Assembly: GCA_951406725.2 (NCBI GenBank)
Contig: OX597817.1
Coordinates: forward strand, 47,740,001 to 47,804,000
Reading direction: 5' to 3'
Origin: Octopus vulgaris
Lineage: Eukaryota
DNA: 64,000 nt
The notes under the pieces were generated by a model that saw only the letters and a program-made list of their open reading frames with translations, was not told where the DNA came from and made no database searches. How positions within the stretch are numbered: position 1 is the first letter of the stretch; every line of letters begins with the position of its first letter. Below are positions 22,281 through 23,154 of this stretch, one piece after another. Made by a program: the position numbers and the translations under genes.

Positions 22281-22982
22281 GTAAGTGGATATTCGAATCT
22301 GTTGGAATGTATTTAGAATGAATATGTGAATAATCATCATCATTTAACGTCCGTTTTCCATGCTTGCATGGGCTGGACGGTTCAACCAGGGTCTGGGAAG
22401 CCAGGAGGCTGCACCAGGCTCCAGTCTGATCTGGCAGTTTCTACAGCTGGATGCCCTTCCTAACGCCAACCACTCCGTGAGTGTAGTGGGTGCTTTTTAT
22501 GTGCCACCAGCACAGGTGCCAGGGGAGGCTGGCAAAGGCCACGATCGGTTGGTGGTTTTTACATGCCACTGACACGGAAGCCAGTCAAGGCGGCGCTGGC
22601 ATCGGCCACGTACGGATGGTGCTTTTTACGTGCCACCGGCACAGGTACCAGTGGAGGCTGGCAACAGCCATGATCGGTTGGTGCGTTTTACGTGCCACCG
22701 CCATCATTATTTTGATTCTCACTGTTCACTGTGAATATGACAATTTATTAAATTCCTTCTGTAATTTGTAAATTTAAAGGAAGGCTTCTTTTTTCCAGTT
22801 TTTCCAGATTTGTAATTAAACTTAACTATACTGTTCTACTGAATTTGTTTTGGGTTTATCGAACAAGTTAACCCTTTTGATGCCAACCCAGCTGAAACCG
22901 CCTCTGGTTCTTTAGTACTCTTTTACTTGTTTCAGTCATTTGACTGTGGCCATGCTGGAGCACCGCCTTTTAAAATGTGTGA

Positions 22983-23101
22983 TGCTTACAGCACCTACGT
23001 TTCCCAAGCGGTCACCCATCTAAGTACTAACTAGGCTCGACGTTGCTTAACTTCGGTGCTCGGACAGGAACCTGAGCTTTCAATGTGATATGGCCCTAAG
23101 C
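22983..23101 (-). pseudogene. Full-length diverged 5S rRNA copy (119 nt)
   Basis: Reverse complement GCTTAGGGCCATATCAC...CCGAAGTTAAGCAACG...GATGGGTGACCGCTTGGGAA...GTGCTGTAAGCA; A-box, C-box and complementary termini. Confidence 0.92.
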
Positions 23102-23104
23102 AAT

Positions 23105-23154
23105 AAAAACTTGGAAGGCTTCACGAATCTGCAGGTCATCCTTGTGCAGGGGCC
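23105..23154 (-). pseudogene. 3' ~50 nt of U6 snRNA (pseudogene fragment)
   Basis: Reverse complement GGCCCCTGCACAAGGATGACCTGCAGATTCGTGAAGCCTTCCAAGTTTTT versus canonical U6 GGCCCCTGCGCAAGGATGACACGCAAATTCGTGAAGCGTTCCATATTTTT. Confidence 0.9.

What the first reader, a model, noticed from the sequence alone, without database searches (positions are those of the whole stretch)
22917..23154. Tripartite U6-5S rRNA-SINE tail chimera inserted into a MITE
Seen: on the minus strand, in one orientation, the order is U6 3' 50 nt ending TTTTT, then ATT, then a complete 5S rRNA, then TCACACATTTT, then the last ~55 nt of the SINE A tail. The block interrupts a family C MITE, which resumes on both sides with about 6 nt (AAATGT) missing. 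Known: LINE reverse transcription yields U6-LINE type chimeras in mammals. Inference: a LINE RT primed on the SINE tail and moved successively onto the 3' ends of 5S and then U6 RNA (or copied a ligated RNA). The trailer ending TTTT may be a captured pre-5S transcript running to its Pol III terminator. The alternative is an undescribed U6/5S-headed SINE family.
Basis: partly seen in the sequence, partly recalled or inferred. Interest (0 to 1): 0.8.

Follow-up and report, generated by a model that had tools for sequence, protein, structure and literature searches.

The report
U6 fragment atop recurring 5S-tail retrocopy
Inside an intron lies a DNA copy of three RNAs fused end to end (half of U6, a whole 5S rRNA and a SINE tail); the U6 join is near single-copy while the 5S-plus-tail unit recurs at other loci, likely a small undescribed 5S-headed retroelement family to which U6 was added once.

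Summary
The structure is real: U6 3' half (23154-23105), complete 5S (23101-22983), 11-nt trailer and 54-nt SINE tail, all on the minus strand. It splits a 229-bp MITE with 6 nt lost and no target duplication.

The MITE|U6|5S junctions are bridged by one contig at single-copy depth, which argues against a U6-5S array, a U6-headed family or a misjoin. The 5S|tail junction recurs: 8 of 24 listed contigs cross it in register, 9-16% different from this locus, two at about 9-fold depth; roughly 90 copies at most (rough).

Best reading: a LINE reverse transcriptase copied a 5S-trailer-tail RNA from a small family, then jumped once onto U6. Close rival: two jumps, the first at a hot spot.

U6 chimeras, tripartite chimeras and 5S-headed SINEs are all known. 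I found no report of this combination or of a 5S-headed SINE in cephalopods, but repeat databases could not be searched. The partner LINE, the host species and the other copies' sequences were not obtained.

The parts
23105..23154 (-). 3' 50 nt of U6 snRNA, 5'-truncated, ending in T5; decayed or variant copy
   Evidence: Rfam RF00026 alignment, E 4e-9; single-copy depth in run X1
23102..23104 (-). ATT between U6 and 5S +1: untemplated bases, or the end of a T8 tract with one substitution
   Evidence: sequence; bridged by contig record 8; origin is inference
22983..23101 (-). Complete 5S rRNA copy; 7 changes in nt 1-43, 1 in nt 44-119; internal promoter region carries no majority-level difference except one site that varies among copies
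   Evidence: RF00001 91 bits; variant table; scan test
22972..22982 (-). 11-nt trailer ending in T4, likely 3' flank and Pol III terminator of a minority class of 5S genes
   Evidence: 7-14% of 5S 3'-end depth runs into it in runs X1, X2; contigs with trailer and no tail (records 13, 14)
22916..22971 (-). SINE tail shared by several tRNA-headed SINE families of this genome; two hairpins and a short terminal repeat
   Evidence: 21 matches in window; 0/48 from SINE A consensus; fold z -3.4
22868..22918 (.). First piece of the host MITE (229 bp when intact, inverted ends beginning TTAA); last 3 nt shared with the tail
23154..23245 (.). Second piece of the host MITE; 6 nt lost between the pieces
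   Evidence: (table 5c)
23245..23434 (-). Separate SINE of another family inserted in the same MITE
23434..23498 (.). Third piece of the host MITE
22281..23775 (+). Host intron between two AG/GT-bounded exons (22087-22280, 23776-23873) that join in frame; the insert is antisense to the gene
   Evidence: read by eye; gene identity not established

Best explanation
This 238-bp U6-5S-tail insert is likely a dead retrocopy, made when a LINE reverse transcriptase copied an RNA of a small 5S-headed, tail-bearing element family and then likely jumped once onto U6. Shown: the three parts, their common sense, the split MITE with 6 nt lost, near single-copy U6 junctions, and the same 5S-trailer-tail register at other loci. 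Inferred steps: (1) a founder joined a trailer-bearing pre-5S RNA to the 54-nt tail; (2) such copies are transcribed by Pol III from the 5S internal promoter, reading through or lacking the T4; (3) the LINE protein bound the tail hairpins and primed at a 3-nt match in the MITE; (4) after reaching 5S +1 it jumped to the 3' U tract of U6, stopped after 50 nt and was joined at a 1-nt match. The U6-bearing copy did not spread.
For:: contig record 8 (177 nt, 1 difference, depth 23.1, equal to the unique flank) bridges MITE|U6 and U6|5S; U6 bins are 1.0x and 1.9x single copy. 8 of 24 listed records cross trailer and tail with 21-52 nt of tail; 4 of the 8 meet the tool's 31-letter rule; two are the same locus in two runs, so at most 7 sequences; net length differences 0, 0, +1, -2, -10, -3, +1, -2; 9-16% different from this locus; records 4, 11, 12 have long flanks at single-copy depth, records 3 and 5 have about 9-fold depth. 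Chance in-register expectation 0.1-0.2, or 1-2 on a generous bound. The join lies at the boundary where other SINE families also pick up this tail (table 7, 37). Precedent: 5'-truncated U6 ahead of short L2 or SINE pieces with little or no duplication in platypus, lizard and opossum (PMC4476161, section 10).
Against: This copy keeps T4 ahead of the tail, which should stop much Pol III transcription (established knowledge; not tested). Length differences of 0 to -3 and -10 also fit separate captures of pre-5S and mature 5S. The other copies' sequences were not returned, so shared diagnostic changes are untested. Estimated number is about 90 at most and rests on an assumed 2.5-Gb genome and summed contig depth, which the tool says is no copy number. 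285,397 records were not listed and the list favours long contiguous matches. The lopsided decay (7 changes in 5S nt 1-43, 1 in the following 142 nt; p 0.001-0.03) is not explained by one insertion decaying evenly. Partner LINE not found.
Confidence: 0.45

Rival explanations
1. Double template switch with a hot spot: the reverse transcriptase starts on an ordinary SINE RNA, often pauses at the 5' edge of the tail hairpins and jumps to pre-5S or mature 5S; here it jumped again to U6. The 5S+tail loci are then independent chimeras, not a family.
For: T4 retained here; trailer also occurs without tail (records 13, 14); spacing variants 0 to -3 and -10 fit variable U tails and trimmed 5S; repeated use of identical switch sites and a tripartite chimera are reported in Magnaporthe (PMC2104539).
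Against: Two contigs crossing the junction have about 9-fold depth (records 3, 5), which suggests amplification after joining; junction depth is up to a fifth to a third of trailer-class depth (table 3); needs two rare jumps.
Confidence: 0.3
2. RNA ligation before reverse transcription: U6, 5S and a discrete tail fragment were joined as RNA and then copied.
For: U6 joins through its T tract to 5S +1; ligation is one of two proposed routes for U6/L1 chimeras (PMC11838501 passages); a fixed tail start would follow from a discrete fragment.
Against: From established knowledge, 5S +1 carries a triphosphate and is a poor ligation acceptor; no RNA data were laid (the one read-laying run used three contig sets and one DNA run).
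Confidence: 0.1
3. Two-stage history: an older U6-5S retrocopy sat in the MITE and its 3' part was later replaced or converted by a younger 5S+tail copy.
For: Changes cluster in U6 and 5S nt 1-43 while 142 nt further 3' carry one; those changes are single-copy in run X1 (record 8). PMC4476161 names sequential insertion as the alternative for tripartite structures.
Against: Break point chosen after the fact; p only 0.02-0.03 in 3 of 4 ways of counting; overall load is close to the 7-12% of the flanking MITE; one other SINE A tail of 9 also has 0 changes.
Confidence: 0.1
4. DNA-level capture from a native U6-5S gene array, or an assembly misjoin.
For: Run X7 shows depth 20-47 and run X2 up to 1.9x over the U6 bins, origin unresolved; this copy's own 3' joins are not bridged by a listed contig; human-like records are filtered out without notice.
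Against: U6 bins at exactly single-copy depth in X1 while 5S bins reach 27,000x; full-length 5S contigs stop matching at 23100-23105 and continue with other sequence; U6 is a half gene; record 8 bridges both 5' junctions.
Confidence: 0.05

Closest known systems
U6 chimeras of non-L1 LINEs and their SINEs (U6-L2, U6-Mon-1 in platypus; U6-AnolisSINE2; U6-RTESINE1), Doucet et al. 2015, PMC4476161
   Same: 5'-truncated U6 with its T tract, sense, ahead of a short 3' piece of a retroelement; little or no target duplication; non-propagating
   Different: A whole 5S gene plus trailer lies between U6 and tail; invertebrate host; target deletion; partner LINE unknown
Tripartite chimeric retrogenes (WEIRD-MgSINE-MGL; mouse B2-U6-L1), Gogvadze et al. 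2007, PMC2104539
   Same: Three RNA copies fused in one sense at one site
   Different: Those are flanked by 14-16 bp duplications; here none, and the 3' junction recurs at other loci
SINE3, 5S-headed SINEs (definition in PMC3531059; HaSE3 and CoeSINE5 share tails with tRNA-headed SINEs, PMC5786205)
   Same: Full 5S head with intact internal promoter plus a tail shared with tRNA-headed SINEs; several dispersed copies
   Different: No body, only head, trailer and 54-nt tail; T4 before the tail in this copy; copy number perhaps under 100; PMC4494074 gives vertebrates and insects as the range
Human 5S/LINE-1 chimeras (PMC11838501)
   Same: 5S joined to a retroelement 3' end
   Different: Those are often antisense and truncated; this one is sense, full length and keeps a trailer
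SINEU (U1/U2-headed SINEs, PMC4494074)
   Same: snRNA piece added at the 5' end of a short retroelement, ascribed to template switch
   Different: The U6-headed form here is near single-copy

Membership tests
U6 chimeric retrocopies | U6 5' of, and in the same sense as, a retroelement 3' end | tested here: met
U6 chimeric retrocopies | U6 3' T tract at the junction | tested here: met
   T5 at 23109-23105
U6 chimeric retrocopies | Unique, non-propagating junction | tested here: met
   1.0x and 1.9x single-copy depth in runs X1, X2; X7 unresolved
U6 chimeric retrocopies | U6 joined directly to the LINE or SINE piece | tested here: not met
   5S and trailer intervene, unless the 5S+tail unit is itself the SINE
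Tripartite chimeric retrogenes | Three RNA-derived parts fused in one orientation | tested here: met
Tripartite chimeric retrogenes | Target-site duplication proving one event | tested here: not met
   no duplication, 6 nt lost; the split MITE still bounds the insert
SINE3 (SINEBase criteria) | At least 60% identity to 5S rRNA over at least 60 nt | tested here: met
   whole Rfam model, 91 bits; few majority differences
SINE3 (SINEBase criteria) | Interspersed, at least 100 copies | tested here: inconclusive
   up to 7 distinct sequences among 24 listed records; rough ceiling about 90
SINE3 (SINEBase criteria) | Copies share substitutions absent from the cellular RNA gene | not testable with these tools
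   one search returns counts, not sequences; no genome held; collection scans empty
SINE3 (SINEBase criteria) | Pol III transcript running from the 5S head into the tail | not tested
   no RNA run laid; T4 precedes the tail in this copy
SINE3 (SINEBase criteria) | Tail shared with a partner LINE | tested here: inconclusive
   tail shared with other SINEs; no LINE recognised upstream of the 20 other window matches (by eye, 70 nt)
SINEU or U6-headed SINE | Many copies with the snRNA head | tested here: not met
Linked U6-5S gene arrays | Multi-copy junction with a full-length U6 gene | tested here: not met
   half U6, single-copy depth

The most novel reading that the evidence does not exclude
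The 54-nt tail works as a fixed-site adaptor: Pol III RNAs (pre-5S, mature 5S, and in chain U6) are repeatedly joined to it at one position, and some products amplify as a minimal, body-less 5S-headed SINE. The genome would then hold every stage of SINE birth side by side: single captures, small amplified subfamilies, and a copy gaining a new head.
Probability: 0.2. Interest if true: 0.7.

Novelty: new variant of a known kind. Interest (0 to 1): 0.42.

Why it matters
Template switching is the standard proposal for how SINEs gain heads and tails, but intermediates are rarely caught. A low-copy 5S+tail class next to one U6-extended copy makes the step from one-off chimera to family testable in one genome, by comparing junctions and diagnostic changes across some tens of loci. 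It would extend U6 chimeras and possibly SINE3 to a likely cephalopod. The locus itself is an intronic, decayed copy with no sign of function.

Tried and rejected
No genome was held, so no genome-wide BLAST. Pattern scans found nothing: 5S-end plus tail pattern in metagenome contigs; a 29-nt 5S stretch in metagenome, genome and viral contigs; these collections are mostly microbial, so the blanks say nothing. Raw-read run X22 laid only 15 reads, none on 5S or U6, and was set aside as uninformative. No second 5S or U6 hit in the window; other Rfam hits are low-complexity miRNA models below cut-off. ARAGORN found no tRNA. Host gene: only a sub-threshold Pfam Rod_C hint (E 0.02-0.06); PDB and Atlas gave nothing usable. 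Earlier findings: none. A-to-I editing as cause of the 5S changes was rejected: none of the 8 is A-to-G in the RNA sense. A SINE landing by chance behind 5S pseudogenes was rejected as the source of the recurring register, though the generous bound of 1-2 is not negligible. Joints skipping the insert (table 5) come from other MITE copies at depth of hundreds and were not taken as an empty allele of this locus.

Full report
Observation. On the minus strand the window reads: MITE, 50 nt of U6 3' half ending in T5 (23154-23105), ATT, a complete 5S (23101-22983), an 11-nt trailer ending in T4, one A, the SINE tail (22970-22916), MITE. Rfam gives the 5S 91 bits over the whole model and U6 41.5 bits, E 4e-9, with only the 3' half aligning well. 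Read by eye from that alignment, 11 of 50 U6 positions differ from the pan-eukaryote consensus, 3 at strongly conserved sites; this animal's own U6 was not available. No other 5S or U6 copy lies in the window.

Tail and target. The tail matches 21 places in the window including this one. It differs at 0 of 48 positions from the consensus of 9 SINE A copies, which themselves differ at 0-6. Trailer plus tail folds into two hairpins (z -3.4; 1 of 200 shuffles as good). The host is a 229-bp MITE with inverted ends; its pieces lie at 22868-22918, 23154-23245 and 23434-23498, the last gap holding a different SINE. Six bases are lost at the insert (table 5c). Tail and MITE share 3 nt at the 3' join, U6 and MITE 1 nt at the 5' join, with no duplication. 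PMC4494074 (passages) states that non-LTR insertions may delete target bases instead of duplicating them. The site is in an intron, antisense to a gene whose identity I could not establish; a kinetochore ROD/KNTC1 identity is a sub-threshold hint.

Independent data. Of 24 runs listed I laid 4 on 22711-23250 at 82% likeness. The raw-read run gave 15 reads and is uninformative. In run X1 a 177-nt contig spans 23030-23206 with one difference, bridging MITE|U6 and U6|5S, at depth 23.1, the same as the unique flank. X1 may be related to the window's source, though its contigs differ from the window at 3 sites. U6 bins are 1.0x single copy in X1 and 1.9x in X2, against 27,000x and 15,000x peaks over 5S. 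So the U6 junction is real and near unique. In X7 the U6 bins show depth 20-47 of unknown origin. Human-like records are filtered, so native U6 may be hidden. No listed contig of this locus covers 22898-23029.

The 5S|tail junction recurs. Of the 24 records listed (285,397 not listed), 8 run from 5S through the trailer position into 21-52 nt of tail; 4 meet the 31-letter bridging rule; records 4 and 12 are one locus in two runs. They differ from the window by 9-16%, so they are not this locus. Net length differences are 0, 0, +1, -2, -10, -3, +1, -2. Records 4, 11 and 12 carry long flanks at single-copy depth; records 3 and 5 have about 9-fold depth. Chance placement would give 0.1-0.2 such cases, 1-2 on a generous bound. 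Scaling junction depth to tail depth gives about 90 copies at most for an assumed 2.5-Gb genome; this is crude, since summed contig depth is not copy number and includes overhang from SINE alignments. Only 14% (X1) and 7% (X2) of 5S 3'-end depth continues into the trailer, and records 13 and 14 carry the trailer without the tail. The trailer therefore likely belongs to a minority 5S class and predates the join.

Mechanism. Shown: parts, orientation, target change, near-unique U6 join, recurring 5S|tail join. Inferred: priming on the tail, copying through 5S, a jump to the U6 U tract and premature stop. I favour a small 5S-headed family as template (0.45) because of the fixed register at the tail's module boundary and the multi-copy contigs. 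Against it: T4 stands before the tail here, and the spacing variants also fit separate captures of pre-5S and mature 5S at a hot spot (0.3), as reported for switch sites in Magnaporthe (PMC2104539, passages and section 9). Ligation (0.1), later conversion (0.1) and array or misjoin (0.05) remain.

Unexplained. Six positions differ from the majority of 5S contig depth and two more break pairs. Seven of these eight lie in 5S nt 1-43 and one in the following 142 nt. A scan test gives p 0.001, 0.02, 0.02 and 0.03 for four ways of counting. PMC10886601 (passages) notes that SINE3 heads diverge upstream of the promoter, but these changes are single-copy in X1, so they are not shared family marks there. 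Flanking MITE pieces differ from consensus at 6 of 88 and 6 of 51 sites.

Comparison. PMC4476161 (passages and section 10) describes 5'-truncated U6 ahead of short L2 or SINE pieces with small or no duplications in platypus, lizard and opossum, and cites triple chimeras. PMC11838501 (passages) reports human U6 and 5S chimeras with L1, the 5S ones mostly antisense and truncated. PMC3531059 (passages; supplement not held) gives the SINE criteria used. PMC5786205 (passages; supplement search empty) shows 5S- and tRNA-headed SINEs sharing tails. PMC4824008 (passages; 2 supplement files searched, 1 not), PMC4758252, PMC5804259 and PMC6472339, passages only, name tRNA-derived octopus SINEs or SINE abundance and no 5S-headed one. 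Searches listed no paper on a U6-5S-tail chimera or a cephalopod SINE3. I saw listings only for most hits, and subscription papers, Repbase, Dfam and unread supplements could hold one.

Verdict. Real; a new variant of known chimeric retrocopies. It works like a U6 template-switch chimera but fails the direct-join and duplication tests, and SINE3 membership of the 5S+tail unit is open. Interest 0.42, mostly for the recurring 5S+tail class.

Noticed in passing
22984-23102 in runs X1, X2, X7: 5S-like sequence is very abundant (rough scale 6,000-12,000 copies); dispersed full-length single-copy 5S copies with long flanks occur (records 7, 16, 15), and run X7 holds several multi-copy 5S variants 13-16% different from this one.
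   Followed up: partly
window 23105-23142, run X7: Depth 20-47 over the U6 part in a third organism with no long contig listed; could be a U6 copy or a related chimera.
   Followed up: no
window 23059-23154 versus 22917-23058: Substitutions cluster in the 5' part of the insert; possible later conversion of the 3' part.
   Followed up: partly
window 22087-22280, 23776-23873, 48647-49240: Exons of a plus-strand gene; weak Pfam Rod_C hint (E 0.02-0.06) suggests kinetochore protein ROD/KNTC1.
   Followed up: partly
window 1225-1690, 13051-13526, 20934-21387, 41974-42439: The 229-bp MITE with TTAA-starting inverted ends occurs as adjacent pairs at four places; piggyBac-like ends by recall.
   Followed up: no
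window 57577-58176, minus strand: 199-aa stop-free stretch resembling the C-terminus of an RTE-type LINE protein (recalled motifs; no Pfam hit).
   Followed up: partly
window 22489-22700, 24823-25039, 27729-27887, 39808-40000, 41363-41520, 43730-43887, 49121-49273: A second SINE family carries internal 62-63-bp tandem units.
   Followed up: no
window 2647, 26278, 28084, 32380, 46298, 59198, 61690: At least one older SINE variant reaches the same tail through a different linker, so the tail start is a shared module boundary.
   Followed up: partly
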